64,000 bases of DNA from an uncultured Planctomycetota bacterium (GTDB lineage Bacteria > Planctomycetota > Planctomycetia > Isosphaerales > Isosphaeraceae): the NCBI GenBank assembly GCA_963823665.1, contig CAWGMQ010000010.1, forward strand, positions 1,408,001 through 1,472,000, written 5' to 3'. Below are positions 4,983 to 61,992 of the stretch, one piece after another (position 1 is the stretch's first letter; the number at the start of each line of letters is the position of its first letter). A program made the translations under genes and the position numbers. A model generated the notes under the pieces. The model was not told where the DNA came from. It did not search any database and was given only the letters and a program-made list of their open reading frames with translations.

Positions 4983-6874
4983 TCAGTTCCGTATGGCCCG
5001 CCGACCAGCCGGAGCGCTGTGCGAGTCTTCTTCATCGCCAACGCACCCAGCCCCCGCCGGCACGCCCAGATTCGGCAGCCCGAGCGCCTCGGGCGCCGCG
5101 CCATCCGCAAGCCGCTTGATCGCTATGCCAAAGCCTGTCACCTTCGCCTCCCGCTCGCTGCGGTCATGCCGCAAGAGCGCGGTTCCCGATCCGAACATGT
5201 AGCCTCGCTCCGCGACGAGTCTCCATTCCTGCGCGCCCAATCCAAAGTGAGCTGCGCAGGCCGCGATGTCGATTCGGGGAGTTGGTGCCCGATTCGCCCA
5301 GCCCAGAGCCCCGCGCTCGCGGATCGCATCGAGGATCCCCTGTGCGAGCGTGACCTGTCCCAGGAGCGACGGATGCATTGCGTCCATGAAGAGCCGATCG
5401 TCGAGCAGGCCCGTTGCCCCGATTGCATGGAACAGCGCCTGGCCGTCCACGAGTGGGCAACCATGCCGCGCGGCGACCTCGCGACAGGCCTCCTGGAACG
5501 GCGACAGACAGCGCATCGGCATCCCGTCGAAGTCCCGCGCCTTGACAAAGTGCTCATAGGCCTCGTCCCACGCACCTGCGTTTGCCAGCAGACGTGCCAG
5601 GCGATAATGCGTCTCGGCGAAACCCGGTTGCGACTGAAGCAGCGACCGATATCGCTGCTCGGCACTCGCCGGGTCGGTCACCTCCAGTTGCGCGCAGCCA
5701 GGAATTCACGAGCGAACGCTTCGCGTTTGGCGCTCGTGGTCTCGGCCGGCAGATAAGAACGATTGGGGTCGAATCCCGCGTCATTGGCGGGAGGAACGAC
5801 CAGGATCGCGAGCGCTCCGACGCGCTGGCAGAAGCCGGCGATCGCATCCAGACGAAACCGGAAATCATCCAGACGCACAGCAAACTCCGCGGGCGTGAAC
5901 GCCGGAGTGTCGACCAATGGAGGGCGCATGCCTTGGGGCGGCACCACCCCGACGCGGAACCGATCAGCCGTGTCGCGGATCAAGCTGCATACCGGCGAGA
6001 CCGTTGCTGCAAGATCGTCGAGCCTCTGCAGCGGCGGTGCTTTCTCGTCGACATAGTAGTCTAGCTTCCGCGACCAGGGAATCCTCGATGCGAACTCGTT
6101 GTGGCCGGAGTACACGATGAGGGCATCCGGCCGTCGCTTGAGAGCACCCAGCTTTCGATACTGCTCCTCGAGCGTGGCCCCCGGCTCGGCGAGCATCTCG
6201 ACATGGACGCTCTGGCCGAGAACGGCTTCTTCGAGCTGCCAGGCGACGATCTTCCCCACCGAAAGCCATCGGTCAAACGGCAAGCCAGTTGCACTCGACC
6301 CGCCGAGCACGGCCAGAGTCACGCCGGGCTCGCGTGAGGTTTCCCAGACTCGCCCGTCGCCAAGCAGGGGGTCTTCGGTCAAGCGGCGCTCGCGCAACGG
6401 ATCGGCAAACCGATCAGCAATCTCTGCCTCGGCATGGGCCGGTGCAATTGCAAGCTCGGTCCTGGCACGCCCGAGCCCCACAACCAGCTCGGCCAGTCCG
6501 ATCGCAACCAACGAGGAGACGCAAACCGACAATCCGCGTACGGCCGTGTGTCCCATTGTCGCCTTTCGCTCCGCGAAAGTGCGTCCCAAAAATCCGCGCA
6601 CGGCTGCCTTTGACTCGGTCCCGCTCCGCCGTGCCCGCCACAACATTGAGCTGAAAATCACCGCGCCCGCCGGGAGCGCAGCCAGAGCCGCAACGTAGAC
6701 GACTTCAAGCCCGATCAGAAACCCGAGCGTCGCCTTTCGCCGGATCATGGGGGTGATAATGAACCCGAGCCAGGGCAGCGCGACCAACACCGCCGCAACG
6801 GCAGCACTCAAGGCGAAAGCCGTCAGGATCACGCGCAGAATCCGGTGACCCGCGGATCGATCGAACATGCCCAT
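4983..6874 (-). CDS. Membrane-anchored SGNH-hydrolase-like/TPR protein, paralog 1 (frameshift at ~5680)
   Basis: TM N-terminus; VLGGSSA, YSGHNEF and FMDAMHPS motifs; TPR-like AETHYRLARLL segment; joins ORFs 5678..6946 and 4983..5681. Confidence 0.75.
6558..6587. repeat. 30-bp palindromic REP-like element inside a CDS
   Basis: GTCGCCTTTCGCTCCGCGAAAGTGCGTCCC is the exact reverse complement of 35696-35725. Confidence 0.85.
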
Positions 6875-31510: not shown

Positions 31511-32536
31511 ATGCGGGCCAAGCCCGTCTTGCGTCCCTGCCGAAGATTCATGCGGTTCAGCGTGCGGGGGCTGATCGTCCTTGTGCTCTTGATCGGCGCC
31601 TGGGTCGGCTCGATCGTGCGAAGTGCCCGCATCCAGCGCGAGGCGGTGGCAGCGATTCAGAAGGAGGGTAATGGCGTCGCATACAACTGGGAGTGGAGCA
31701 ATGGGAGTTTCGTCGTACCGCGCGGACGACCCTGGGTTCCACGCCGGCTGGTCGATCTTCTGGGGATCGACTACTTCGGCCACGTCACTTCTGTCTGGCT
31801 TCGAGATACCACCGATTTGGCGATTGCGAACGTCTCGCGTCTCGATCGCCTCGAGCAACTGAAAATCAATACGCTTGCCAGGACCGGCGCCCGGGCCAAC
31901 ATCGACGACTATCTGGCACAGCTAAGCGGCCTGACTGAGCTCACCGAGCTCGATCTCGGATTCGCGGCGGTCACCGATGCGGGGCTCGCTCATCTGAAAG
32001 GCATGACCAAGCTGTCGACGCTCCAGCTCCGGAGTGCCGCAATTACGGATGCTGGGTTGGCGCATCTGGAGGGTCTGACCAACCTCAGGGCGCTCGCTGT
32101 TTTTGACACACGAATCACGGGCGCCGGGCTCGTTCATCTGAAAGGGTTGAGCAAGCTTTCGGGCCTCTTTCTCAGAAGCTCGCAAATCGACGGCAACGGG
32201 CTCGAGCACCTGAGCGGGCTGGCCGGCCTCACGTCGCTTAGCCTCATTGGATCGCCGGTGACCGATGCGGGGTTAGCGCATTGCAAGGACCTGACCAGGC
32301 TTCGTGACTTCAGCCTCGATGGCGCGCAGATCTCTGACGCCGGAGTTGCGAATTTGAGCGGGCTGACGAGCATCGCCATGCTCTCGCTCTCCGGCACGAA
32401 GGTCTCCGACACAGGATTGGTGCACCTGAAGGGGTTGACCAAGCTGACCAGCCTCAACCTCGGCGGCACTCGAGTTACTGACGCTGGAGTGAAAGAACTA
32501 CAGAAAGCTTTGCTGCGCCTGGAGATCTCCCGCTGA
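31511..32536 (+). CDS. Leucine-rich repeat protein 2
   Basis: RFSVRGL leader + TM; repeats of L..LT.L..L.L....VTDAGLAH. Confidence 0.92.
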   Translation: MRAKPVLRPCRRFMRFSVRGLIVLVLLIGAWVGSIVRSARIQREAVAAIQKEGNGVAYNWEWSNGSFVVPRGRPWVPRRLVDLLGIDYFGHVTSVWLRDTTDLAIANVSRLDRLEQLKINTLARTGARANIDDYLAQLSGLTELTELDLGFAAVTDAGLAHLKGMTKLSTLQLRSAAITDAGLAHLEGLTNLRALAVFDTRITGAGLVHLKGLSKLSGLFLRSSQIDGNGLEHLSGLAGLTSLSLIGSPVTDAGLAHCKDLTRLRDFSLDGAQISDAGVANLSGLTSIAMLSLSGTKVSDTGLVHLKGLTKLTSLNLGGTRVTDAGVKELQKALLRLEISR

Positions 32537-32689
32537 TCTGCGGCCCGTGCAAACGGCATCGAATCGTCCCTGTTGCAGGCGCGAGTTGAATCGCAACCGA
32601 TGGAATGAAACGCGCGAGTACTTGGTATGATCTGAGCCGGCGGAGCGAATCGCCTTCGAAGGGCCCCGGATCCCGGGAGAATTTCGACG

Positions 32690-34000
32690 ATGCCGGCCAA
32701 ATTCGGCCCACTTCCCTGGCGAAGATTCTTGCGATTCAGCGTGCTTGGGCTGATCGTCGTTTTGCTGATCGGTGGATGGCTTGGGTGGTTCGTGCGAAGC
32801 GCGCGTATTCAGCGCGAGGCGGTGGCTGCGATCCGCAAGGACGGCAATTTCGTCAAATACAACTGGGAGTGGAAGAATGGGAGTGTCGTTGGCCCGCCTG
32901 GAAATTCCCGAGCACTACGCCGCCTGGTCGATCTTCTGGGGATCGACTATTTCGGCCATGTCACGTCCGTCTGGCTCCGAGATACCACCCCTACCGCGAT
33001 CGCGCACGTCGCGCGTCTCGAACTTCTCGAGCAACTCCGCCTCGATGGTTCTCCAAAGTTCGGTGATCGGTCCAACATCGACGATTATCTGGCGCAGTTA
33101 AGCGGCCTGACTGAGCTCACCGAGCTCGGCCTTGGCCGCTTGCGCATCACCGACGCCGGAGTCGCGCATCTGAAAAACATGACGAAGATGTCGAAGCTCC
33201 ACCTCTACCAAGCCGAACTTACCGATGGTGGGCTGGCGCATCTGCGGGGGATGACCGAACTCACAGAACTCGACCTCGGCCAGACGCACGTAACCGATGC
33301 AGGGCTAGCGCGCCTGAAACACTTGACGAAGCTGTCGAAGCTGCGCCTCCGCGGCGACAAGCTTACCGATGCAGGACTCGCGCAACTGCACGGCATGACT
33401 GAACTCACGGAGCTCGACCTTGGCGTCGCGCCGGTTACCGATGAAGGGCTAGCCCATCTGAAAGACATGACCAAGCTGTCGTCGCTGCACGTCTGGAGTG
33501 ACAAAATTACCGATGAAGGGCTGGCGCATCTGGAGGATCTGACCAACCTCTCGACTCTGGTTCTGAACGACACGCGAGTCACCGACGCAGGGCTCGCACA
33601 TCTGAAAGGGCTGACCAAGCTTTCGGCGCTCGTCCTCGAAGGTTCGCAAATCGACGGCACTGGGCTTGAGCACCTCGGCGGGATGGCCGGCCTAGGACTA
33701 CTCAGCCTCAACATATCGCCGGTGACCGATGCGGGCTTGGCGCATTGCAAGGGGCTAACCAGTCTCCGCGACTTGAGCCTGGACTACACGCAGATCTCCG
33801 ACGCTGGACTTGCGCACTTGAGCGGGCTGACGAACCTCGACATGCTCTCCCTCTGGGACACTAAAATCACCGACGCCGGATTGGTTCATTTGAAAGGGCT
33901 GACCAAGCTGACCAGCCTCAACCTCTACGGCACTCAGGTCACCGACGCTGGAGTGAAAGAACTACAGCAAGCTTTGCCGCGCCTGGATATCTCGCGCTGA
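32690..34000 (+). CDS. Leucine-rich repeat protein 3
   Basis: Close paralog of LRR 2 with about four extra repeats. Confidence 0.92.
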   Translation: MPAKFGPLPWRRFLRFSVLGLIVVLLIGGWLGWFVRSARIQREAVAAIRKDGNFVKYNWEWKNGSVVGPPGNSRALRRLVDLLGIDYFGHVTSVWLRDTTPTAIAHVARLELLEQLRLDGSPKFGDRSNIDDYLAQLSGLTELTELGLGRLRITDAGVAHLKNMTKMSKLHLYQAELTDGGLAHLRGMTELTELDLGQTHVTDAGLARLKHLTKLSKLRLRGDKLTDAGLAQLHGMTELTELDLGVAPVTDEGLAHLKDMTKLSSLHVWSDKITDEGLAHLEDLTNLSTLVLNDTRVTDAGLAHLKGLTKLSALVLEGSQIDGTGLEHLGGMAGLGLLSLNISPVTDAGLAHCKGLTSLRDLSLDYTQISDAGLAHLSGLTNLDMLSLWDTKITDAGLVHLKGLTKLTSLNLYGTQVTDAGVKELQQALPRLDISR

Positions 34001-34087
34001 TCTACGGCCCGTGCAATCGGCATGGAATCCTCCCTGCTGTATCGCGCGAGTGGAGTCGCAATCGATTGAATGAAGCGCGCGCGTAAT

Positions 34088-34096
34088 TGGTATAAT
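34088..34096 (+). promoter_or_regulatory. Extended -10 promoter element (paralogous copy TGGTATGAT at 32623-32631)
   Basis: TGGTATAAT in a duplicated intergenic spacer upstream of an LRR gene. Confidence 0.55.
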
Positions 34097-34153
34097 TTGA
34101 TCCGCGGAGCGAATCGCCGCCGAAGAGTGTCGAATCCCAGAGAGTGTCGACCA

Positions 34154-35128
34154 ATGTCGGCCAAATTCGGCCCACGTCCCTGGCGAAGATTCCTGCGCTT
34201 CAACGTGCGGGGATTGGTCGTTCTCGTGCTCGTCATTGGCGGGTGGCTTGGCTGGCTCGTTCGAAGCGCGCACATCCAGCGCGACGCGGTGGCGGCGATC
34301 ACGAAAGCCGGGGGAATTGTGTCTTATGACTGGAACTCCGGCAGGGGGACGTTGAAGCCGGCACGGAAACCTTGGGCGCCGTGCTGGCTCGTGGATCTTA
34401 TTGGAGTCGACTATTTCGGTCACGTCACCGAAGTCACGCTTTATGAGAAGGGAACCGATGCCGTGATGCGACACGTCGCGTGGCTTTCGCAGGTCGAGCG
34501 ATTGATTCTCGATCAATCACCAGTCAGCCGCGACGTCGCGCTGAACGGGCTCACCTTCCTCGAGGTCAAGGACACACGTGTTACCGACGCCGGGCTGGCG
34601 CATCTCAAGGGGCTGACCAAGCTCTCCTACCTGATCCTCGACGACACTCCTATCACCGACATCGGGCTGGCGCATTTGAAGGATCTGAGCAATCTCTCCG
34701 TCCTTGACCTTGGAAACACGAATGTCACCGATGCCGGGCTGATGCATCTGAAGGGGTTGACGAAGCTGTCCCATCTCGACCTTCGCGGCACCGTAGTAAC
34801 CGATGCCGGGCTGGCGCATCTCGCGGGGCTGACCACGCTCGAAGAGCTGCTTCTCGGCGGGAAATCGTTCACCGACGCCGGACTCGTGCATTTGAGAGGA
34901 TTGACCAACCTCAGCACGCTCGACCTCGACGGCGCTGTGATCACCGACGCCGGGCTCGCACATTTAAAGGGGTTAAGCAAGCTCGCCGACCTAGACCTCA
35001 GCTTCACGCAGGTCACCGATGAGGGGCTCAAGCACCTGAAAGGGTTAACCAAGCTCTCTGGCCTCGAGGTTGACGGCACTGCTGTCACGGAGTCTGGAAC
35101 GAAGGAGCTCAGGGAAGCGCTGCCTTGA
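34154..35128 (+). CDS. Leucine-rich repeat protein 4
   Basis: RFNVRGL leader; TDAGLAHLKGL repeats. Confidence 0.92.
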   Translation: MSAKFGPRPWRRFLRFNVRGLVVLVLVIGGWLGWLVRSAHIQRDAVAAITKAGGIVSYDWNSGRGTLKPARKPWAPCWLVDLIGVDYFGHVTEVTLYEKGTDAVMRHVAWLSQVERLILDQSPVSRDVALNGLTFLEVKDTRVTDAGLAHLKGLTKLSYLILDDTPITDIGLAHLKDLSNLSVLDLGNTNVTDAGLMHLKGLTKLSHLDLRGTVVTDAGLAHLAGLTTLEELLLGGKSFTDAGLVHLRGLTNLSTLDLDGAVITDAGLAHLKGLSKLADLDLSFTQVTDEGLKHLKGLTKLSGLEVDGTAVTESGTKELREALP

Positions 35129-35695: not shown

Positions 35696-35725
35696 GGGAC
35701 GCACTTTCGCGGAGCGAAAGGCGAC
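35696..35725. repeat. 30-bp REP-like palindrome (intergenic copy)
   Basis: GGGACGCACTTTCGCGGAGCGAAAGGCGAC; stem CTTTCGC/GCGAAAG. Confidence 0.85.
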
Positions 35726-49284: not shown

Positions 49285-50154
49285 TTATCGACGGCTTGGT
49301 GCCAGGGTAAGCCGAGAACTGCTACAGGTGGATTCGGCGCTCTTCTCGGCGATGATTTCCAATACCATTGGTGTCAGCATCACGGTTGTTGGATCCGATT
49401 CGGCCATCGCCCATTCGTTTCTCACTCGATCGCAGAAGCCCGCGTCCACTCGACCGAGCTCGAGGAGTCTCCGAAGATTGGTGTCCAGGAATGATGCAGG
49501 CCAGCGCCAGTGGAAATCTGCAGGGTGGACTGCGAAGATGATCGGTTCCACATGAGTAAGACGAAAACCTGCGGCCGTGAGCACGAGGGGAAGCGCGAGG
49601 GCCACGTCAGGTTCTCCGCCCGTGGCCTGCCAACTCGCCATTACCTCGGCAACGAATGCCTCGACGGCGTGTCGGCGTGGGGCGAGCCGCCAGGTCCGAT
49701 AGTCGGCGTATTCATGAAAGACAACTCTGCCCCCGACGCGGAGGGTCTGGTGGATCGCCCGCACGAGCTGCTCAGGGCTTTTGACAAATGACGCTACCCA
49801 CCGGCACCAGGCCACGTCGAATCCGGCTGCCTGGATCGGTTCGGACATCAAATCGAGCTCGTGGACGCGGACGTTGTTCAAACCGTGCCTGGCGACCGCA
49901 TCTCTCAACGCAGTGACGAACCGATCTGACCGCTCCGCCGCCACGACCTCGCCGCGGTCTCCGACGATCTCGGCCAGATCAACGGTCGCGAAGCCGGGGC
50001 CCGCACCAACGTCGAGGACGCGCGATCCAACCGTCGCGCCTGCGCGCCTCAGTGCGTCGAGCATCCTTGGCCGCCAGACTCGGTGCTGCAGGCCCAGTCG
50101 CTGTAGTTCCTCCTCATGCGTTCCAAGGACATAGTCGCGATCCAAAGTACCCAT
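49285..50154 (-). CDS. Class I SAM-dependent methyltransferase
   Basis: YVLG..EELQRL..QH; VLDVGAGPG; FDVAWCRW. Confidence 0.92.
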   Translation of the reverse strand: MGTLDRDYVLGTHEEELQRLGLQHRVWRPRMLDALRRAGATVGSRVLDVGAGPGFATVDLAEIVGDRGEVVAAERSDRFVTALRDAVARHGLNNVRVHELDLMSEPIQAAGFDVAWCRWVASFVKSPEQLVRAIHQTLRVGGRVVFHEYADYRTWRLAPRRHAVEAFVAEVMASWQATGGEPDVALALPLVLTAAGFRLTHVEPIIFAVHPADFHWRWPASFLDTNLRRLLELGRVDAGFCDRVRNEWAMAESDPTTVMLTPMVLEIIAEKSAESTCSSSRLTLAPSRR

Positions 50155-50545
50155 GTCTTGCCCTTTCCCAACGTTTGACCTGGTGGGGAGTTTGGACAAG
50201 ATATCGCGAGCGGAACGAGCCGTCTCGCCGTTTCCGGCCGTGCAATTGCGATTCGGGCAATCTGGAGCCAGAGGCATTCTGGAGCCAGACACCCAACCTC
50301 TGGAGTTGGTTCCGGGGCACCCGTTGCAGACATCCACCGCTCAGGGGGCACCCGAGCTGTTCGCAGCAGCGGACGCGTCCAAACGCTGGCGACCTACCCG
50401 AGCGCACACGATTGCTGACCGTGCGTCTTACAGCGCGTGCTGTGCGCAACGTCGGCCGCGAGGCGCCCTGCGAACGCGGGACGCGAACCGGTGTCAGTCA
50501 CGTGTGCAGGTTTCGCCCGGGACCCACTCCGGTTGGTGGGTGTCT

Positions 50546-51278
50546 TTGCGTCAGGAAAAGCTCGAGAAAGGAGGAAGTGCCTCGAAACACAGAAACCTTT
50601 CATCGCGACCCTGCGGGTTAACGAATCCCGCCCGGCAGAGCCTGGCCGGCAGCCGGAAGCAAGTCTTGCGTGGGGAGGGGTGACCCTCACTGCGAAGCGT
50701 AGACAGCGAGTCTCCATGCCATGCTATCGAGCCCCGAAATACTCATCGTGGGAGCCTCCGTTGTAGACACAAGCGGGGGCCGTGTCGACACGCCGCAATG
50801 GCCTGGCGTGTTCGGTCCTGCCGGGGTCCAAGAACATGGCGCAGGGACGCGAGGGTTGCTCGGGAACCTGAGAGCCCCATCCGTCTCCACTGACATTTCC
50901 GGCTCGGGAACCGGAATACCAACTCCCCGGCCCACGACCCCGCGTCGGGTCGCTGGGAGCGAACAAGACGCAAGGGTGGTATCGCCAAACGAAGGCAACG
51001 AAGTGCGGCGAAATGGGCGGACGGGAGTCGGAGTGCTCCGTAGTAGCAGTGAAGCGGGGGAATGGGCCCTCCCAGACCCTGTGGAGCGAAGGGGGTACCG
51101 TGTCGCGGACTGGAAGCCGGAACCACGCCGAGGGCATTGGACCTCAGAGCGCGTCACCGCGAGGCGACCAGATCGTGAGAGGGACAGCGACGCCGCGACA
51201 TGACGAGCCGGATGCCTTAATTGGGCACGTCCGGATCAGTGGGAGCCCTGGCGGAGCGATCCGCCAGGGCGACCCGGC
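50546..51278 (+). mobile_element. ORF-less group II intron, copy 1 (733 nt)
   Basis: Domain V at 51205-51237 (AGC triad, AC bulge); domain VI 11-bp stem with GCGA loop and bulged A 51272; EBS1 AGACAC (50765-50770) complementary to exon end GTGTCT (50540-50545). Confidence 0.92.
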
Positions 51279-51302
51279 GGTTTCCCCGGTTGGTGGGTGT
51301 CT

Positions 51303-52035
51303 TTGCGTCAGGAAAAGCTCGAGAAAGGAGGAGGTGCCTCGAAACACAGAAACCTTTCATCGCGACCCTGCGGGTTAACGAATCCCGCCCGGCAGAGCCT
51401 GGCCGGCAGCCGGAAGCAAGTCTTGCGTGGGGAGGGGTGACCCTCACTGCGAAGCGTAGACAGCGAGTCTCCATGCCATGCTATCGAGCCCCGAAATACT
51501 CATCGTGGGAGCCTCCGTTGTAGACACAAGCGGGGGCCGTGTCGACACGCCGCAATGGCCTGGCGTGTTCGGTCCTGCCGGGGTCCAAGAACATGGCGCA
51601 GGGACGCGAGGGTTGCTCGGGAACCTGAGAGCCCCATCCGTCTCCACTGACATTTCCGGCTCGGGAACCGGAATACCAACTCCCCGGCCCACGACCCCGC
51701 GTCGGGTCGCTGGGAGCGAACAAGACGCAAGGGTGGTATCGCCAAACGAAGGCAACGAAGTGCGGCGAAATGGGCGGACGGGAGTCGGAGTGCTCCGTAG
51801 TAGCAGTGAAGCGGGGGAATGGGCCCTCCCAGACCCTGTGGAGCGAAGGGGGTACCGTGTCGCGGACTGGAAGCCGGAACCACGCCGAGGGCATTGGACC
51901 TCAGAGCGCGTCACCGCGAGGCGACCAGATCGTGAGAGGGACAGCGACGCCGCGACATGACGAGCCGGATGCCTTAATTGGGCACGTCCGGATCAGTGGG
52001 AGCCCTGGCGGAGCGATCCGCCAGGGCGACCCGGC
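51303..52035 (+). mobile_element. ORF-less group II intron, copy 2 (733 nt)
   Basis: Direct repeat of copy 1 at a 757-bp period; only difference noticed is A50576 vs G51333. Confidence 0.92.
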
Positions 52036-52247
52036 GGTTTCCCCCCCGCGTTCTTTGCGGTAATGTGTACTGATCTCACGATAATGTTCTCACTTAGAGT
52101 GCTTGTGGCAAGTGGAAGCCAAATCGGGTCGTCAGCCGCTTGCCGGCGCCGGCATCCGAGGACGATATGCAGCTTCGGCCGGATTGTGTCGCGGACTGCA
52201 TCGGCTTGCTTGGCGTGAGCCAACGATAGGACCCTGGCGAAAGGATT

Positions 52248-55200
52248 CTACTTCGACGTCTTGCCCAGAAGTTCGTCGAGATGCGGAGTGACCGGCTCGT
52301 TTAACGGCAGGAACCAGATTGACGGCTTCTTCTGCGCACGGTATTGCCGGTCGAGAGATTCGAGCACTTCCTTGATCGTCTTGCCAGGGCCGAGGACCGC
52401 ATCGACGCGTGGCGCAATTTGTTCAGTCAGTGCCACAAACCAGGACGAGTTCTTCGCCTTCGCACTGTAGTGCTGGTCGAGCTTGTCGAGGACCTCTTTC
52501 GCGGGGATGGCCGGCCCGAGGAGTTGGTCCAGCAAGGGAGCGGCCCTTTGGTCGAGGCCGAGTTTAGTTCAGCGCCTCCCGAGCTTGATGGCGTGCGCGA
52601 GCCGCCTCGATCGCGGCCGGTGCGTCGATTGCGGGTTGGGGTGGTGGTATCCTTCCATCCTTCAATGCCGCGAGTAGCTCTGCCGACTGCGGACGGAGGG
52701 CGGGATCGATTGCCCCTACTTTCAGAGCGCTGTCGTACGCGGCGAGGGAGTCCTCGGCAGACTTTTGAGCCGCTGCCTGCGCGCCCAGACGCCACAGGCA
52801 TAGTGCGAGATGATAGCGAACTCGACCGTTCCACGATGCGTCCTCGGGCTCTGCCCGCTCGAGTTCCGGCATCAGCGCCGAGATCTCGTTGCAGGCTTTC
52901 TCCGCCAATCCGAGCTCGCGCAGCGCAGCCGCCCGGAGAATGCGAGTTCGAAGCATGGCAAAGGGCTTCACAGATTGGTCGGCCATGGGGTCTAGCGCGG
53001 CCTCGCAGAGCACGACTGAGTCGGCATGAGCACCCTCGTTGAAGGCGGCTAGGCCCCGTGCAGTCAGTTCATCCCCGTTTGGCCGAAGCAGGTTGTCGAG
53101 ATGCTGGGCGATTGGTTCATCCGGCCCGAGGAGATAGACAGCCGGCTTGCCCATTTCCTTGTAATGGCGATCCAGGAATGACAGCACGTCCGCGACTGAT
53201 CTGGTCGGGCCGATGAGCCTTTCCACCTCGGGAACGATCGGCGCCAGCTTGTCCGTCACCTCCGTCGTTGATTTGATCCGCCGGGAGATCTCGGGCTCGG
53301 CCAGCTTCAGCGCGGCGAGCAGTTGGCGGTAGTTATCGAGATTTTGACGCAGATTCGGATGCTCATGGCCCGTCGATCGTTGGAATCGCGATAAGATGCG
53401 AACGGCGCGTGCCATAAGTGGCTCGGCCGCCTCGATGCGGTTAGTGGAGAAAAGAAGCAACGCCTGATTGTTCAGGTCTCTTGCGACGGCGGGGTGATCG
53501 GGGCCGTACGTCCGTTCGTCGATGTCCATCGCCCGCCGATATAGCGGCTCGGCCTCCGACATTCGATTCGTCGCGCGGAGCAGCTCCGCCATGTTGTTGA
53601 GACTTTTTGCCACATCCGCGCTGTCGGGGCCGTACGAGCTCTGATCGATCGCCAGCGCCCGCCGCATCAGTGGCTCGGCCACCACCGTGCGGTTCGTGTC
53701 GTGGAGCAACCCCGCCAGGTTGCTGAGGTCGATCGCGACGTTGGGGTGGCGTGGGCCGTACGACCTTTCGTCGATCGCCAGCGCTCGCCGATATAGCGGC
53801 TCGGCGTCCGCGATGCGGTTCGTATCGTGGAGCAGCGTCGCCAGGTTATTGAGGCAATTCGCGACGAAAGGGTGGTCGGGCCCGTACGAATGCTCGTCGA
53901 TCGCAAGCGCCCGACGACAGAGTGGCTCGGCCTCCGCCATGCGATTCGTTGCCTGGAGCATCGCCGCCAGGTTATTGAGGCGATTCGCGACGAGAGGATG
54001 GTCGGACCCGTACGACTGCTCGTCGATCGCCAGCGCCCGGCGATAGAGCGGCTCGGCCTCCACCACGCGGTTCGTTGCCTGGAACATCGCCGCCAGGTTA
54101 TTGAGGCAATTCGCGACGAGGGGATGGCCGGGCCCGGTCGACGGCTCGGCGATCGCTAGCGCCCGGCGAAACAGCGGCTCGGCGTGCGCGGTACGGCCGG
54201 TCGCCTCGAGCAGAAGCGCCAGGTTGTTTAGGTCGGCCGCGAATTCAGCTTGGTCCGGGCCACGCGACCGCTCGTTAATCGCCAGCGCCCGACGGAATAG
54301 CGGCTCGGCCTCTGCGATGCGGTTGGTGTTACGGAGCAACTCCGCCAGGTTGTTGAGGTTAGTCGCGACGTTTGCATGGTCAGGGCCGTACGACCGCTCG
54401 TTAATCGCCAGCGCCCGACGGAATAGCGGCTCGGCCTCCGCGATGCGGTTGGTGTTGCGGAGCAACTCCGCCAGGTTGTTGGATCCCATCGCTTCCTCAC
54501 CGGGTTGCGCAGCCAGTTTCAACGCCTCGCGGAGATGGGGTTCCGCGTCGCTGTACCTCGCGAGTTCCAATAAGAGAACACCCAAATCGATACGCGAATC
54601 GAACCAGCTAGGATTCTCGCGAACAATCAGGTCACGAATTCTGAGTGCTTCGTCCCACCTCAGACTGCTTTCGTAAAGGTCAGCTTGAAGCACCGTCGGG
54701 CGATAGGCCTCGCGCAAGCGTTGGTCGGCACGATCGCGGAAAGACTTCGCCGCGCCGATTTTCCTTTCGATGGTCGGCTGTTTTTGTTCGAGGTACTTGA
54801 TTGCCGCATCGACACCCTCGATCGGTTTGTCGAGGATGTTGGCGGCTTCGATGAAAATCGGATCCGGATCTCCGGCCAAACCTTCGCGAATCGTCGCGAC
54901 GAGATCCTGTACGGCTTCCAAGGTCTGATCGCGGCGTTTCTCGATCTCGTCGCGCTTTCGCCAATCGTCAGGGGACCGCGCTTGCGCGGCGGCGATTTCT
55001 TCGACGGCCCGTCTGCGAATGTGGCTCTGCATCTTGCCGACCAGAACGTCAGGATCCGCGTCCTGTTTTCCCAGTGCTTCCAGGTTTTTGTTGACACTCG
55101 TGATTTGTGTGGTGAATCCTTGGCCGAGATTGAGCGTTACGGCCGCAACCGCCACCAGACTTGCCACGCCGATCGCGCCGAGGGCGACTCGCGTTCGTGA

Positions 55201-56043
55201 AGGAGGAGTCACGCTCGCCGGCCGCAGCCCAATCTCATTGCGCCGGAGTTCCCGCTGGAATCCACGGCGATCGGCGCCAGTGCGTTTCGTCAACAGCCCC
55301 CTGCAATAGCCCTTTAGAAGCTTGTATGCGGCTTCGGCTTGGGTCGGGTCCACGAGCACGGCAGTTCGGAGCTTGTCCATCGCCGCGTTGTCGGCATCAC
55401 CGTCGGTGCCGTCGGCACTGACATCAAGCGTATCGATTCTCATCATAGAGAAGAAATCGCGGAGATCCCTCGGCGAGGGCTCAGTCCCGTGAGTTCGGCG
55501 CCAGAATAAGTGAACATGGGAGAGGAGTATCTCAGACGCGGCTTTCTCCTCCTTGCTATTGGCGGCGTCCGTCAACACCGTACAGCGTGCATCGCCTTGG
55601 AACCGATCAAGTACGGCTGGTAGTTGCGAACAGGCCCACATAGGCGCCAGACCATCGGTCACCAGGACGAGACGATCGCGCTCCTGATCTAGCGGACGTT
55701 CCCACGGGTGATTTCCTCCCTTATGGAGTCGCTGTGACAGAAAGTGACGAACGAATTGCCCCACGGCTGATCCGAGCGCTGAATCCTCGGCGGCAGAAAG
55801 CCTTAGACCCCGCTTTGCTTGCAAATATACAGCGCCGCCGGCTGATGTGATGAGCAAGACGTCGTCGACGGGCAGTCCTGTCTCGCATCGAACTTCGGTG
55901 TAATAGACCGTTGGCTCCAACCCCCAACGCGGCGTCACAGCTTGTTCCGCGAGTACGCCGACCGCTGCCCATGCTGCGATGCTGTCCTGGAAGGAAAACC
56001 CTCCGGCAGCAGCAGCTCCGCCTCCTGTGCCAACGGGTAACAT
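52248..56043 (-). CDS. PD-(D/E)XK nuclease-like domain + TM helix + TPR array + C-terminal repeats (frameshift at ~52565)
   Basis: GGFSFQ...E..CET...DD...YLQAKR; hydrophobic VALGAIGVASLVAVAAVTL; about nine 42-aa LNNLA..AEAEPLYRRALAIDE..YGPDHP repeats; ORF 52248..52535 continues it. Confidence 0.8.
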
Positions 56044-58449: not shown

Positions 58450-58544
58450 GTGGGTGTCTTTGCGTCACGGGACGCGAACCGGTGTCAGTCACGTGAGCAG
58501 GTTTCGCCCGGGACCCACTCCGGTTGGTGGGTGTCCGGTTTCCC
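58450..58544 (+). repeat. Intron-free copy of the intron flank, preceded by an exon/intron junction stump
   Basis: 58468-58535 matches 50477-50544 with one mismatch, then C-GGTTTCCC; 58450-58467 is identical to 50536-50553. Confidence 0.9.
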
Positions 58545-58554
58545 GTATGACCTC

Positions 58555-59290: not shown

Positions 59291-59837
59291 TCCAAGACAC
59301 CCACTCTCCGCCGTGGAATCAGTGGGTGTCCGGGAATCTCTGGCAGCCCTAGCAACCCTCTGGCAACCCCTGGCTTCCCCGGGGGGTCGATGTCTGGCTT
59401 CCCAGAGGGTGGATGTCTGGCTTCCCGGCTTCCCTTAGCGCGTTTGGATGCTCATTTTTACAGATCTTCGCGTACGACCAGCACAACTGGCCGGCGGTTG
59501 ATGAAAACAGGCGAAATTCTGGCGATTTCTGGCAAATGGCTCGACGCTTTTGTAGATCATATTGGTAAAGAGCGGCGTTGCGTTGCCGTCGAACGGGGGC
59601 GAGAACGCAAGGCTGGATAGGAAAGCCTTCATCGGTTTGGCGTGCCCTGGAGGATTTGCTGAAGAAACGAAGAAGCCGTGTTTTCTGTACGTGGGACGGT
59701 TGTCTTCGATATTGATCGGACGATTCGGCGTATTGCCTTGGTATGGGACGAGAACGGCGATTGGGGGTGAGACGCTTTCTCGTGATTTCGTCCCATTTCG
59801 TCCCATCAGAGCTCGATGATCCGTTTGGTCGGACCAA

Positions 59838-59955
59838 GGGCGGAGGGTGGAGGACGGAGGACGGAGGAAAGGCCGAGACAAAGATCAGGGCGGCGGGACG
59901 GAGGGCGGAGGACGGAGGAAAGGCGGAGACAAACATCAGGGCGGAGGGCGGAGGA
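59838..59955. repeat. Heptamer (GG(A/G)CGGA) tandem repeats arranged in ~51-bp units
   Basis: Two units ending GAAAGGC.GAGACAAA.ATCAGG; same heptamer at 61263-61290. Confidence 0.8.
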
Positions 59956-61629
59956 GACTTGCTCGAAATGGACGAATTCCACATCTATTGCGCAAATAAA
60001 CTGGGGCGTTTGTAGATCATTTGGGTAGAGGCCGAGGGTACCGTCATTAGAATACGAGTACGAGTACGAGCAGGAGGGGACGTGTCGGGCCTACGACTTC
60101 GAGATCGACCTTCGTTGCGTCGGCGGTAAAGATGTCGCCACGATGCCCGGCCGACCAGCAAGGCGACGTCCTCCGCTATTGCCACCGTTTCATCGTTTCA
60201 AAACGCGTTGAACGTGCTCATCTGAATGAGAATCTTTAACGCGAGACTGATGGTTAATCGCCTATCGCGGTTGAATTTGTGTTTTTACGCAGAGATTTAC
60301 AAGTGTGATTGAGAGATAGCCAACGCCCAAAACCCGCGCATAGTATAAGAGGAGGCCGGCTGCGGGCATGGTGGTCGAGTCACCGTTGGTCTGCGCGGCG
60401 ATCCGCCTGGCTTCCCCCCCCACCGCCGCCTGCGGCGGCACCTCGCCGACGGTGGGCTACTCGATCACGATCGCCGACGCCCGAGTTGGCGCGATCGGCA
60501 CCCACGTCTCTGGAACCGAGAATGACTGCTTCGTTTGCTCGATCGCGTGCTCGAGGACCTCAGCCCGGCCTGGCGATGCCCGTGCAGTGGGAAAAACGCG
60601 GCCGCACTGCGCCTGTAAATAGGGATCGGTGCTCGACGAAATTCCACCAAATCTTGAGCTGTGCCGGGCGTGGGACGGGTCTGGACCCCGGTACGGGTGA
60701 GTTTTCTCCTCGCGGGCCGGGCAAACCTGGAGAGGGGCTCGTGGCGTTATCCTCTTTGGCGGTCAGCATTTCCGTACGGCTGCGAGGCTTCCCGGCCAGC
60801 CATCGGACGGGGTTCAAGACGGCAACCAAAATGAGACCTTTTTCAGGGTGATTCGTCCCATTTCGTCTCATTTTGTCTCATTCATTTCTACTTATTTGAA
60901 GCCTGCGAGACATTTCTCGAGAGCCCATCCGCGGAACGCAACAGGGCACTGCGATCTTATGTGGGGAATGCCCGAAACAAGAACGACGAGGGCCACGTAC
61001 CGCCTGCTGGCGCTGCCAATTTACCCCGGTGTACGGATGCTTGATGGGCTCCGGTACTTGCCACTTTTTGCCATTTTTCGAGTCGGCGAACGGTTGTCAC
61101 GCGCGGAGCACGTTATCTGGAACTTCAGTTTGTTCCAGGCATAAGAGGCTGATGGATCGACCGAAACCTTTTTCACATGTGGACTTGCGGAGGGCGGACG
61201 AGGTGGGCTCTGGGGGTGGAGCGCTGCGCCGTCTGCGGGGTGGCGATTCGGGGCCGGAATCAGGACGGAGGGCGGAGGGCGGAGGACGAAGCGCGGAGCG
61301 AAAAGAGCCGGAAGCCGGAAAGCGGGGATCGGAAGAGACCTTCATCGTGGTATCACTCTGGTATCATTTCGCACCAGGGGGCGAGAGGCTGGTGGATCGA
61401 CCGAAGACATGTGCGCATTTGCGTTTGCGGAGGGCGGCCGAACCGGATTCGGGGGGCTGTGCCAGGTCGCGGGCCGCACCTTGGCGATTTTGGGCCAAAG
61501 CCGGGCGATTGCGGGCGAGGTTTCGGCTTCGAATTCGGCCCTTGGCTCGGCATCTGGACCGCGTTAGGGCGTTCCCGTAGTCCTTGTGGGGTAAGGATGC
61601 GCGACGAATAAACAAAACGAAAGCGGGGA

Positions 61630-61752
61630 TGAAATCCGAAATTCGAAGTACGAAATTCGAAGGGGAAGGAGCAGCGAAGGGAGGAGGACTGAGTACGAGT
61701 AAGAGCAGGAGTACGAGTAAGAGCACGAGTAAGAGTAAGAGTAAGAGCAGGA
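61630..61752. repeat. Heptamer (CGAAAT(T/C)) and hexamer (GAGTA(C/A)/GAGCA(G/C)) tandem repeats
   Basis: Directly visible; hexamer also at 60050-60075. Confidence 0.85.
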
Positions 61753-61992
61753 GAGAATACCGTCGGGCTCCGGAGCCATCCGACTGCACGACCCCCGTTC
61801 CGCCGCGTGCGGCGGCACCTCACCCACGGGGTGGGGGGCTACGCGAGCGAGTGCCGATCAACGTTGACCGCCTTTGCGAATTATGACAAAACTCCCCGGC
61901 CAGTTACGGCCGATCGAAAGTGTGTCGGCTGGACGCATCTCACACCGACGTCGTTCTTAGCATCGTCGACCTCTCAGGACGAGGAGTCGCTC

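What the first reader, a model, noticed from the sequence alone, without database searches (positions are those of the whole stretch)
50529..52045. Head-to-tail pair of ORF-less group II ribozymes separated by a 24-nt mini-exon
Seen: two 733-nt copies (50546-51278, 51303-52035), with one substitution noticed, each with intact DV, DVI, branch A and an EBS1 matching its own upstream exon. The spacer GGTTTCCCCGGTTGGTGGGTGTCT is a 3'-exon head joined to a full 5'-exon tail, so both copies have complete splice contexts. There is no RT ORF in the intron or elsewhere in the window and no host gene. Established: ORF-less group II introns can be mobilised in trans by a related intron-encoded protein. 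Inference: a non-autonomous retroelement that forms tandem arrays, either by homing into a 24-nt tandem repeat or by duplication or circle integration that regenerates its target. Double splicing would give an RNA with a tandem 24-nt repeat, and exon skipping is also possible.
Basis: partly seen in the sequence, partly recalled or inferred. Interest (0 to 1): 0.85.

Follow-up and report, generated by a model that had tools for sequence, protein, structure and literature searches.

The report
Twin introns filling duplicated repeat ends
Two copies of a small self-splicing intron that has lost its own enzyme gene sit side by side, most likely because the end of the genomic repeat it targets had been duplicated and each copy was invaded; the pair is a by-product, but it exposes an intron family living on repeat ends that appear to be cut at a fixed spot.

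Summary
The tandem is in the assembly as described: two 733-nt ORF-less group II introns, one substitution, a 24-nt spacer. They belong to 20 copies in this genome (14 ORF-less, 6 RT-encoding), all inserted after GGGTGTCY at the ends of dispersed repeats. Empty repeat ends often carry short tandem duplications (36 of 133 sites; 5 of 1,400 random positions), and their 3' boundary falls about 7-8 nt past the insertion site. The spacer is exactly such a duplication. Best reading (0.72): the empty target duplicated first, then both copies were invaded using the RT of a parent intron elsewhere. A pair made of two different introns in the same genome supports this. Repeat ends carrying only 7-8 nt of intron suggest an enzyme, probably a Y1 transposase, cuts at that offset; that enzyme was not found for this motif. 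Sister introns have matching exon-binding sites for other repeat ends, some flanking Y1 transposase genes. The scan noted that targeting before on other DNA (e1-6756289, e1-7402139), and spacer-less tandems too. Splicing and spanning reads are untested. New variant of a known kind; interest 0.55.

The parts
50546..51278 (+). ORF-less group II intron, copy 1 (starts UUGCG, ends GC)
   Evidence: identical to G000:C11:579626
51303..52035 (+). ORF-less group II intron, copy 2; one private substitution at intron position 31
51279..51302 (+). 24-nt spacer: 3'-exon head (7-9 nt) joined to 5'-exon tail (15-17 nt); one unit of a repeat-end duplication
50353..50545 (+). host dispersed repeat (~200 bp) whose right end is the intron target; continues as 52036-52043 after the introns; left boundary approximate
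   Evidence: 21 matches in G000 and 14 in G001; 26 matches for 50440-50545
52036..52043 (+). 3'-exon head, the last bases of the repeat end
50535..50545 (+). IBS2 candidate (-11 to -7) and IBS1 (-6 to -1) for copy 1; the same at 51292-51302 for copy 2
   Evidence: IBS1 GTGTCT at 19 of 20 filled sites
50765..50770 (+). EBS1 (copy 2: 51522-51527)
   Evidence: 6 of 6 pairs; covaries with the exon in relatives
50743..50747 (+). EBS2 candidate, 3 Watson-Crick and 2 wobble pairs (copy 2: 51500-51504); inferred
50829..50829 (+). EBS3 = C, pairs with the +1 G of the 3' exon (copy 2: 51586)
   Evidence: Watson-Crick with the +1 base in 17 of 19 rows scored; +1 is G at 18 of 20 filled sites
51031..51195 (+). 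ORF-less domain IV segment shared with ORF-less introns of other genomes (copy 2: 51788-51952)
51205..51237 (+). domain V, AGC triad, 2-nt bulge, 5-nt loop (copy 2: 51962-51994)
51241..51275 (+). domain VI with bulged A at 51272 (copy 2: 51998-52032, A at 52029)
50261..50300 (-). second, oppositely oriented repeat end with its own 17-bp duplication, empty
58450..58545 (+). relic: repeat end followed by 8 nt matching the intron 5' end, then 68 nt nearly identical to 50477-50544 and an empty end

Best explanation
A non-autonomous group II intron (class E-like, endonuclease-minus lineage) homes to the GGGTGTCT|G end motif of dispersed repeats. It borrows the RT of a 465-aa parent intron elsewhere in the genome (inferred from established group II biology; not shown here). 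Independently, these repeat ends undergo short tandem duplications that start at a variable point upstream and stop 7-8 nt past the insertion site (pattern shown; cause inferred, most likely a Y1/TIRYT-type transposase cutting at that offset). Here a 24-bp duplication of the empty end made two complete targets, and two homing events filled both, the second possibly templated by the first. The pair is a by-product with no evident function; either intron could splice if transcribed.
For: 20 copies in G000 follow GTGTCT (19) or GTGTCC (1). 36 of 133 empty motif sites carry a tandem duplication across the site, units 8-43 bp, against 5 of 1,400 random positions; the boundary window includes +6..+9 in 37 of 37 G000 cases. 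The spacer is a -17..+7 unit of this kind. At G000:C3:194701-189461 a triplicated target holds an empty copy, an ORF-less intron and an RT intron, so those two insertions were separate. A metagenome contig (L344) holds two different introns, 89% alike over 244 nt, 35 nt apart. Duplications downstream of introns carry 5'-exon letters; 0 of 8 repeated exon heads were preceded by intron letters. EBS3 is C and the intron starts with U, so the known spacer-less route is closed. The parent RT has no HNH domain, and domain I is 100% identical to the parent.
Against: The two window copies differ at one base only and share a haplotype otherwise seen in one other copy, which direct duplication also predicts; single-base haplotypes are weak, since a contig in run X1 with that other copy's flank reads the commoner allele. 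No Y1 gene bracketed by GGGTGTCT ends was found among 41 Y1 loci or in 18 further regions. Duplications are commoner in regions chosen for introns (28 of 88) than in regions chosen for the motif (7 of 41). In G105 a hairpin is built from an intron 3' end plus exon head, so intron 3' ends can be copied with their flank. Only one RT copy (C6:911026) has both an open 465-aa frame and an uninterrupted ribozyme. No splicing or transcription data.
Confidence: 0.72

Rival explanations
1. The filled unit (17 bp exon + intron + 7 bp exon, 757 bp) was duplicated in one step, by slippage or by excision as a DNA circle that recombined back through the intron.
For: Near-identity and shared haplotype of the two copies; the G105 hairpin made from an intron 3' end and its exon head.
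Against: All measured duplication units are 8-43 bp. On filled sites the offset appears to be measured from the upstream motif and falls inside the intron 5' end (7-8-nt stubs, one itself duplicated at +7), not 7 nt past the intron. Two other pairs consist of different introns.
Confidence: 0.13
2. The intron particle itself causes the duplications (abortive homing plus a staggered cut at +7/+8 by a host nuclease or by the HNH protein of the nested intron), so the intron does regenerate its own target, like a target-site duplication of a non-LTR retroelement.
For: The duplication boundary sits at a fixed distance from the intron insertion site, close to the +9/+10 bottom-strand cut of endonuclease-plus introns (recalled); duplications are enriched near introns; G001 and G033 carry intron-like stubs, so such introns were probably once there; an RT-HNH intron is present in 7 copies.
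Against: The parent RT has no nuclease domain; the nested intron targets domain VI, not the repeat; duplications occur at 4 of 31 sites in G001 and 10 of 23 in G033, where the EBS1 hairpin was not found (84-85% complete); Y1-gene ends with other motifs and no intron start in the flanks printed show similar duplications.
Confidence: 0.1
3. Assembly artefact: one intron copy was written twice.
For: No contig listed in four public runs spans the junction; 20 near-identical copies make the region hard to assemble.
Against: The spacer has the exact geometry of natural duplications at empty sites; copy 2 has a private base; the contig is 2.7 Mb in a 12-contig assembly; comparable pairs of different introns exist.
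Confidence: 0.05

Closest known systems
RmInt2 of Sinorhizobium meliloti (class D; PMC4615759, passages read)
   Same: Endonuclease-minus intron that targets the inverted repeats of another mobile element (ISRm17) and forms head-to-tail copies.
   Different: RmInt2 dimers were seen in a mobility assay and are ascribed to EBS3(U) pairing with the first intron base; here EBS3 is C, the intron starts with U, a full target separates the copies, the copies are ORF-less, and the host is a non-coding repeat family.
Tandem integration of EcKTE56.groEL (IIB1; PMC12584367, abstract and passages) and of retargeted RmInt1 (PMC4075523, passage)
   Same: Two copies of an intron, including a delta-ORF form, side by side after two homing events.
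   Different: Those junctions have no spacer and rely on EBS3 pairing with intron G1; this pair needs a duplicated exon target.
ORF-less group II introns served in trans (Trichodesmium dnaN introns, as summarised in PMC12584367; Simon 2008 and Dai and Zimmerly 2003 seen only as reference titles)
   Same: Short ORF-less ribozymes with a related RT-encoding intron in the same genome.
   Different: Here the ORF-less domain IV is closer to ORF-less introns of other genomes (76-84%) than to any of 9 RT-encoding introns (57-73%), while domain I equals the local parent: a mosaic.
TIRtron / TIRYT repeats, TnpA-Y1 subclass 2.1 (PMC3733652 and PMC6006769, passages read)
   Same: Y1 transposase genes flanked by inverted repeats that also form dispersed repeat families; sister introns sit in such ends.
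   Different: GGGTGTCT does not fit the GGGGWSAS consensus and no Y1 gene bracketed by it was found; the passages read mention neither introns in these repeats nor terminal duplications.
Group IIC-attC introns (as summarised in PMC7923331, passages read)
   Same: An intron lineage specialised on the recombination or end sites of another mobile system.
   Different: IIC uses a hairpin and a short IBS1; this lineage is IIB-like with a 6-bp EBS1 that changes with each repeat family.

Membership tests
Group II intron | Domain I matches a curated covariance model | tested here: met
   RF02005 138.4 bits, cut-off 49
Group II intron | Domain V with catalytic triad and 2-nt bulge; domain VI with bulged A | tested here: met
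   folds
Group II intron | Match to Rfam Intron_gpII (DV/DVI) | tested here: not met
   no hit at E<=5; the RT-encoding parent is missed too, so this reflects the lineage
Group II intron | EBS1-IBS1 and EBS3-IBS3 pairing | tested here: met
   30 of 32 rows with >=5 Watson-Crick pairs, shuffled mean 11.7, max 19; EBS3 17 of 19; rows are kin
Group II intron | Ends GUGYG ... AY | tested here: not met
   ends are UUGCG ... GC, shared by planctomycete relatives
Group II intron | Self-splicing | not testable with these tools
   RNA runs are contigs of relatives' pieces, no exon junction
Bacterial class E (IIE) | RT-X protein without endonuclease domain | tested here: met
   465 aa, RVT_1 only; TIGR04416 330 bits on the 434-aa copy
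Bacterial class E (IIE) | RT groups with class E | tested here: inconclusive
   quick tree puts the clade sister to two class D references (96 SH-aLRT, long-branch warning), as PMC3552965 reports for class E; no labelled class E reference was included
Bacterial class E/F ribozyme | 5-nt loop in domain V | tested here: met
   feature from PMC3753933
Bacterial class E/F ribozyme | alpha-prime at the tip of a stem-loop in DId3 | not tested
   not mapped
Class F / g1-g3 | RT groups with g1, g2 or g3 references; FADD motif for g2 | tested here: not met
   27-35% identity and separate branches; motif is YADD; g4 and basal F references not available
Non-autonomous (ORF-less) mobile intron | Many near-identical copies at separate sites and a related RT gene in the genome | tested here: met
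   14 ORF-less and 6 RT copies
Non-autonomous (ORF-less) mobile intron | Mobilisation in trans shown | not testable with these tools
   needs a homing assay
Spacer-less tandem by EBS3 pairing with intron base 1 | No exon between copies; EBS3 complementary to first intron base | tested here: not met
   24-nt spacer; EBS3 C, first base U
TIRtron/TIRYT repeat (host element) | End motif flanks a Y1 transposase gene in inverted orientation | tested here: inconclusive
   met for sister motifs (L145, L402); not found for GGGTGTCT in 41 Y1 loci
TIRtron/TIRYT repeat (host element) | GGGGWSAS consensus | tested here: not met
   motif is GGGTGTCT followed by a GRMWTCC-like end
TIRtron/TIRYT repeat (host element) | Dispersed repeats paired in inverted orientation | tested here: met
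   419 motif hits against 110 for the control; 20 of 44 inverted pairs are 120-139 bp long

The most novel reading that the evidence does not exclude
A Y1 (TIRYT-type) transposase cuts these repeat ends 7-8 nt past GGGTGTCT whatever sequence follows. It thereby multiplies the intron's targets (terminal duplications, hence spaced intron tandems) and also carries repeat ends away from inserted introns, leaving 7-8-nt intron stubs. The intron 5' end would then serve as a natural tag that maps the cut site of a transposase class whose activity is untested, while an old ORF-less module follows each repeat family by swapping onto the local domain I.
Probability: 0.35. Interest if true: 0.75.

Novelty: new variant of a known kind. 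Interest (0 to 1): 0.55.

Why it matters
The dimer itself is explained by ordinary homing. What it exposes is more useful: a family of repeat ends that duplicate with a fixed boundary and that carry short intron stubs, which gives a concrete, testable cut position for the enzyme that maintains them; a group II lineage whose exon-binding sites track different repeat families; and a route to intron tandems that differs from the published spacer-less one. My ten literature searches found no paper on introns in these repeats or on the terminal duplications, but the library lacks most subscription papers.

Tried and rejected
Rfam Intron_gpII: no hit. Reads: four runs laid as contigs; X1 and X2 hold the intron with flanks of other G000 loci, none listed spans the junction; RNA runs X10 and X14 gave pieces of the intron with many differences, no exon junction, so no statement on expression. 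Sigma-70 promoter and terminator scan of 50100-52400: 0 and 0. Whole-intron folding z-score -1.86, uninformative. Loose junction pattern: 50 of 121 family genomes matched, almost all by chance; of 110 loci checked only L256 (G000) and L344 were true junctions, and 40 of 120 metagenome loci were not examined. G105 (L396) looked like a pair but its upstream piece is only ~33 nt of domain VI; G064 and G014 candidates are single introns. Strict junction pattern for sister targets: 0 of 401 phylum genomes. Search for the transposase of the GGGTGTCT repeats: none in 41 Y1 loci, 52 neighbouring ORFs or 18 further regions. Idea that the domain VI insertion is an IS: rejected, it is a second intron. 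Search for introns missing their first 7-8 nt: two G030 candidates lay at contig ends, the others had full starts. First EBS3 search picked invariant columns; the covarying position was then chosen by eye and tested. The careful tree did not finish; only the quick tree is used. One script failed part-way each; only printed rows are used. Term search of bioRxiv 10.1101/119735 found nothing relevant.

Full report
Observation. The window holds two 733-nt copies at 50546-51278 and 51303-52035 that differ at one base, with a 24-nt spacer. Both match Rfam group-II-D1D4-6 at 138.4 bits; Intron_gpII is not hit, nor is it by the RT-encoding parent. Domain V with a 5-nt loop, domain VI with a bulged A, and EBS1 pairing 6 of 6 with the exon are present. 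No RT match lies in the window (0 of 27 genome-wide matches). The pair is intergenic, antisense to a methyltransferase gene and a TPR gene.

The intron family. The window lies in G000, 16.5 Mb in 12 contigs; named relatives of the RT are mostly Planctomycetota. G000 has 14 ORF-less copies (97-100% identical) and 6 RT-encoding copies. The RT is 465 aa, has no HNH domain and a YADD motif. Two copies have the full frame, the others are shifted (sequencing error not excluded), and only C6:911026 has both a full frame and an uninterrupted ribozyme. The ORF-less form is a mosaic: domain I is 100% identical to the local parent, but positions 486-650 are 76-84% like three other ORF-less introns and 57-73% like nine RT-encoding ones. 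A quick tree places the RT clade beside class D references and apart from g1-g3 references; PMC3552965 (parts 2-3 of 4, Table S2 whole, rows of Table S1) reports D and E as sisters, so class E is inferred, not shown. Mobilisation in trans is inferred from established group II biology.

The target. All 20 copies follow GTGTCT (19) or GTGTCC (1), and the next base is G in 18. The motif TGGGTGTCY occurs 419 times against 110 for its control and forms the ends of repeats, often in inverted pairs (20 of 44 pairs were 120-139 bp). The window's host is a ~200-bp repeat from about 50353 with 21 matches in G000 and 14 in G001. In relatives (22 of 60 other genomes match) EBS1 changes with the exon: 30 of 32 rows have at least 5 Watson-Crick pairs against a shuffled mean of 11.7. 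EBS3 follows the +1 base in 17 of 19 scored rows (6 rows could not be scored, rows are kin and at least one locus is counted twice). Some sister targets flank Y1 transposase genes: in L402 an intron sits in one inverted end and the other end is duplicated, and in L395 an intron sits in the end just upstream of the gene. For GGGTGTCT itself no bracketed Y1 gene was found in 41 loci.

Why two copies. Empty ends are often duplicated in tandem: 36 of 133 sites, units 8-43 bp, against 5 of 1,400 random positions. Sites within one array count separately. Split by how regions were chosen, the counts are 28 of 88 near introns, 7 of 41 and 2 of 12 in motif-chosen regions, 4 of 31 in G001 and 10 of 23 in G033; the boundary window includes +6..+9 in 50 of these 51. 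The EBS1 hairpin was not found in G001 or G033 (84-85% complete). The window spacer is a -17..+7 unit of this kind. Three G000 duplications downstream of introns carry 5'-exon letters and 0 of 8 repeated exon heads follow intron letters (one of the 8 is a distant chance match), so these duplications came before insertion. At C3:194701-189461 three target copies are empty, ORF-less-filled and RT-filled, and metagenome locus L344 has two introns 89% alike, 35 nt apart. The published spacer-less route needs EBS3 to pair with the first intron base (PMC4615759, PMC12584367, PMC4075523; passages), which C and U cannot do. I put duplication first, then two homing events, at 0.72.

What makes the duplications. 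A pattern for the motif followed by an intron-like start gave 30 hits in G000 against 2 for the control. Twenty are long introns; ten are stubs, nine of 7-8 nt and one of 20 nt. The pattern forces 7 nt, so the informative point is that they stop by 8. Four of the ten belong to one composite family, and one is in the window at 58460. In G001 a stub is itself duplicated at +7. This fits an enzyme that cuts 7-8 nt past the motif whatever follows. A Y1/TIRYT transposase is the likeliest candidate by analogy with the sister motifs (PMC3733652, PMC6006769; passages), but this is inference; deletions at short homologies could also leave stubs.

Results against. The two copies share a haplotype and differ at one base, as direct duplication would predict. 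Duplications are commoner near introns. A G105 hairpin is built from an intron 3' end with its exon head. No listed contig from four runs spans the junction. Spaced pairs are uncommon: 2 true junctions among 110 loci checked and 0 of 401 phylum genomes for a strict sister pattern. Nothing shows transcription or splicing.

Comparison and verdict. It works like RmInt2, an endonuclease-minus intron living in another element's inverted repeats, and like known ORF-less introns, but the tandem arises by another route. Ten searches found no paper on introns in these repeats or on the fixed-boundary duplications; PMC3753933 (parts 1-2 of 7), PMC7923331, PMC4028801, PMC4853749 and PMC5894124 (passages) were also consulted, and figure supplements of PMC4028801 on class-specific ends were not seen. 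Earlier notes of this scan report the repeat-end targeting (e1-6756289, e1-7402139) and spacer-less tandems; I had reached the targeting independently and took the RmInt2 and RmInt1 papers from those notes. New variant of a known kind; interest 0.55.

Noticed in passing
G000:C6:1321400-1323860 (L049) and six other sites listed: A second group II intron (627-aa RT-maturase-HNH; Rfam D1D4-7 and Intron_gpII) is nested in the basal stem of domain VI of this intron family in 7 places, one of them an ORF-less copy.
   Followed up: partly
window 58450-58545: Repeat end followed by 8 intron-like bases, then a near-identical copy of 50477-50544 with an empty end; probably a relic of a former insertion.
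   Followed up: yes
L023, L025, L028 (G000) and L112 (G001): A sister intron (about 72% identical) targets the same repeat end on the opposite strand with a matching EBS1.
   Followed up: partly
L399 (G033:C4:622037-622376): An array of 11 copies of the empty repeat end, spaced 28-39 bp.
   Followed up: partly
L071 (G000:C8:1768807) and L068 (G000:C10:2124293): GGGTGTCT repeats interrupt or abut Y1 transposase genes whose own ends carry other motifs, evidence that the repeats move.
   Followed up: partly
L200, L202, L205, L206: Related introns sit after an A-run-G motif inside what look like transposase genes, possibly an IS3-type frameshift site (recalled, not tested).
   Followed up: no
L215 (Halomonas contig): A related intron is followed directly by another intron start, a spacer-less tandem.
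   Followed up: no
G000:C11:551000-581000 and C6:911000-923500: Clusters with repeat elements every few kb and 6 and 4 intron copies, among variable genes.
   Followed up: partly
window 6558-6587 and 35696-35725: A 30-nt perfect inverted pair of a palindromic repeat, REP-like, unrelated to the intron target.
   Followed up: no
window 31900-35070 and 52564-56043: 72-bp-period coding repeats in three blocks, and a 1159-aa TPR protein with 126-bp repeats.
   Followed up: no
window 59294-59331 and 59830-61760: A 37-bp hairpin with the same end motif, and further short direct repeats of other types.
   Followed up: no
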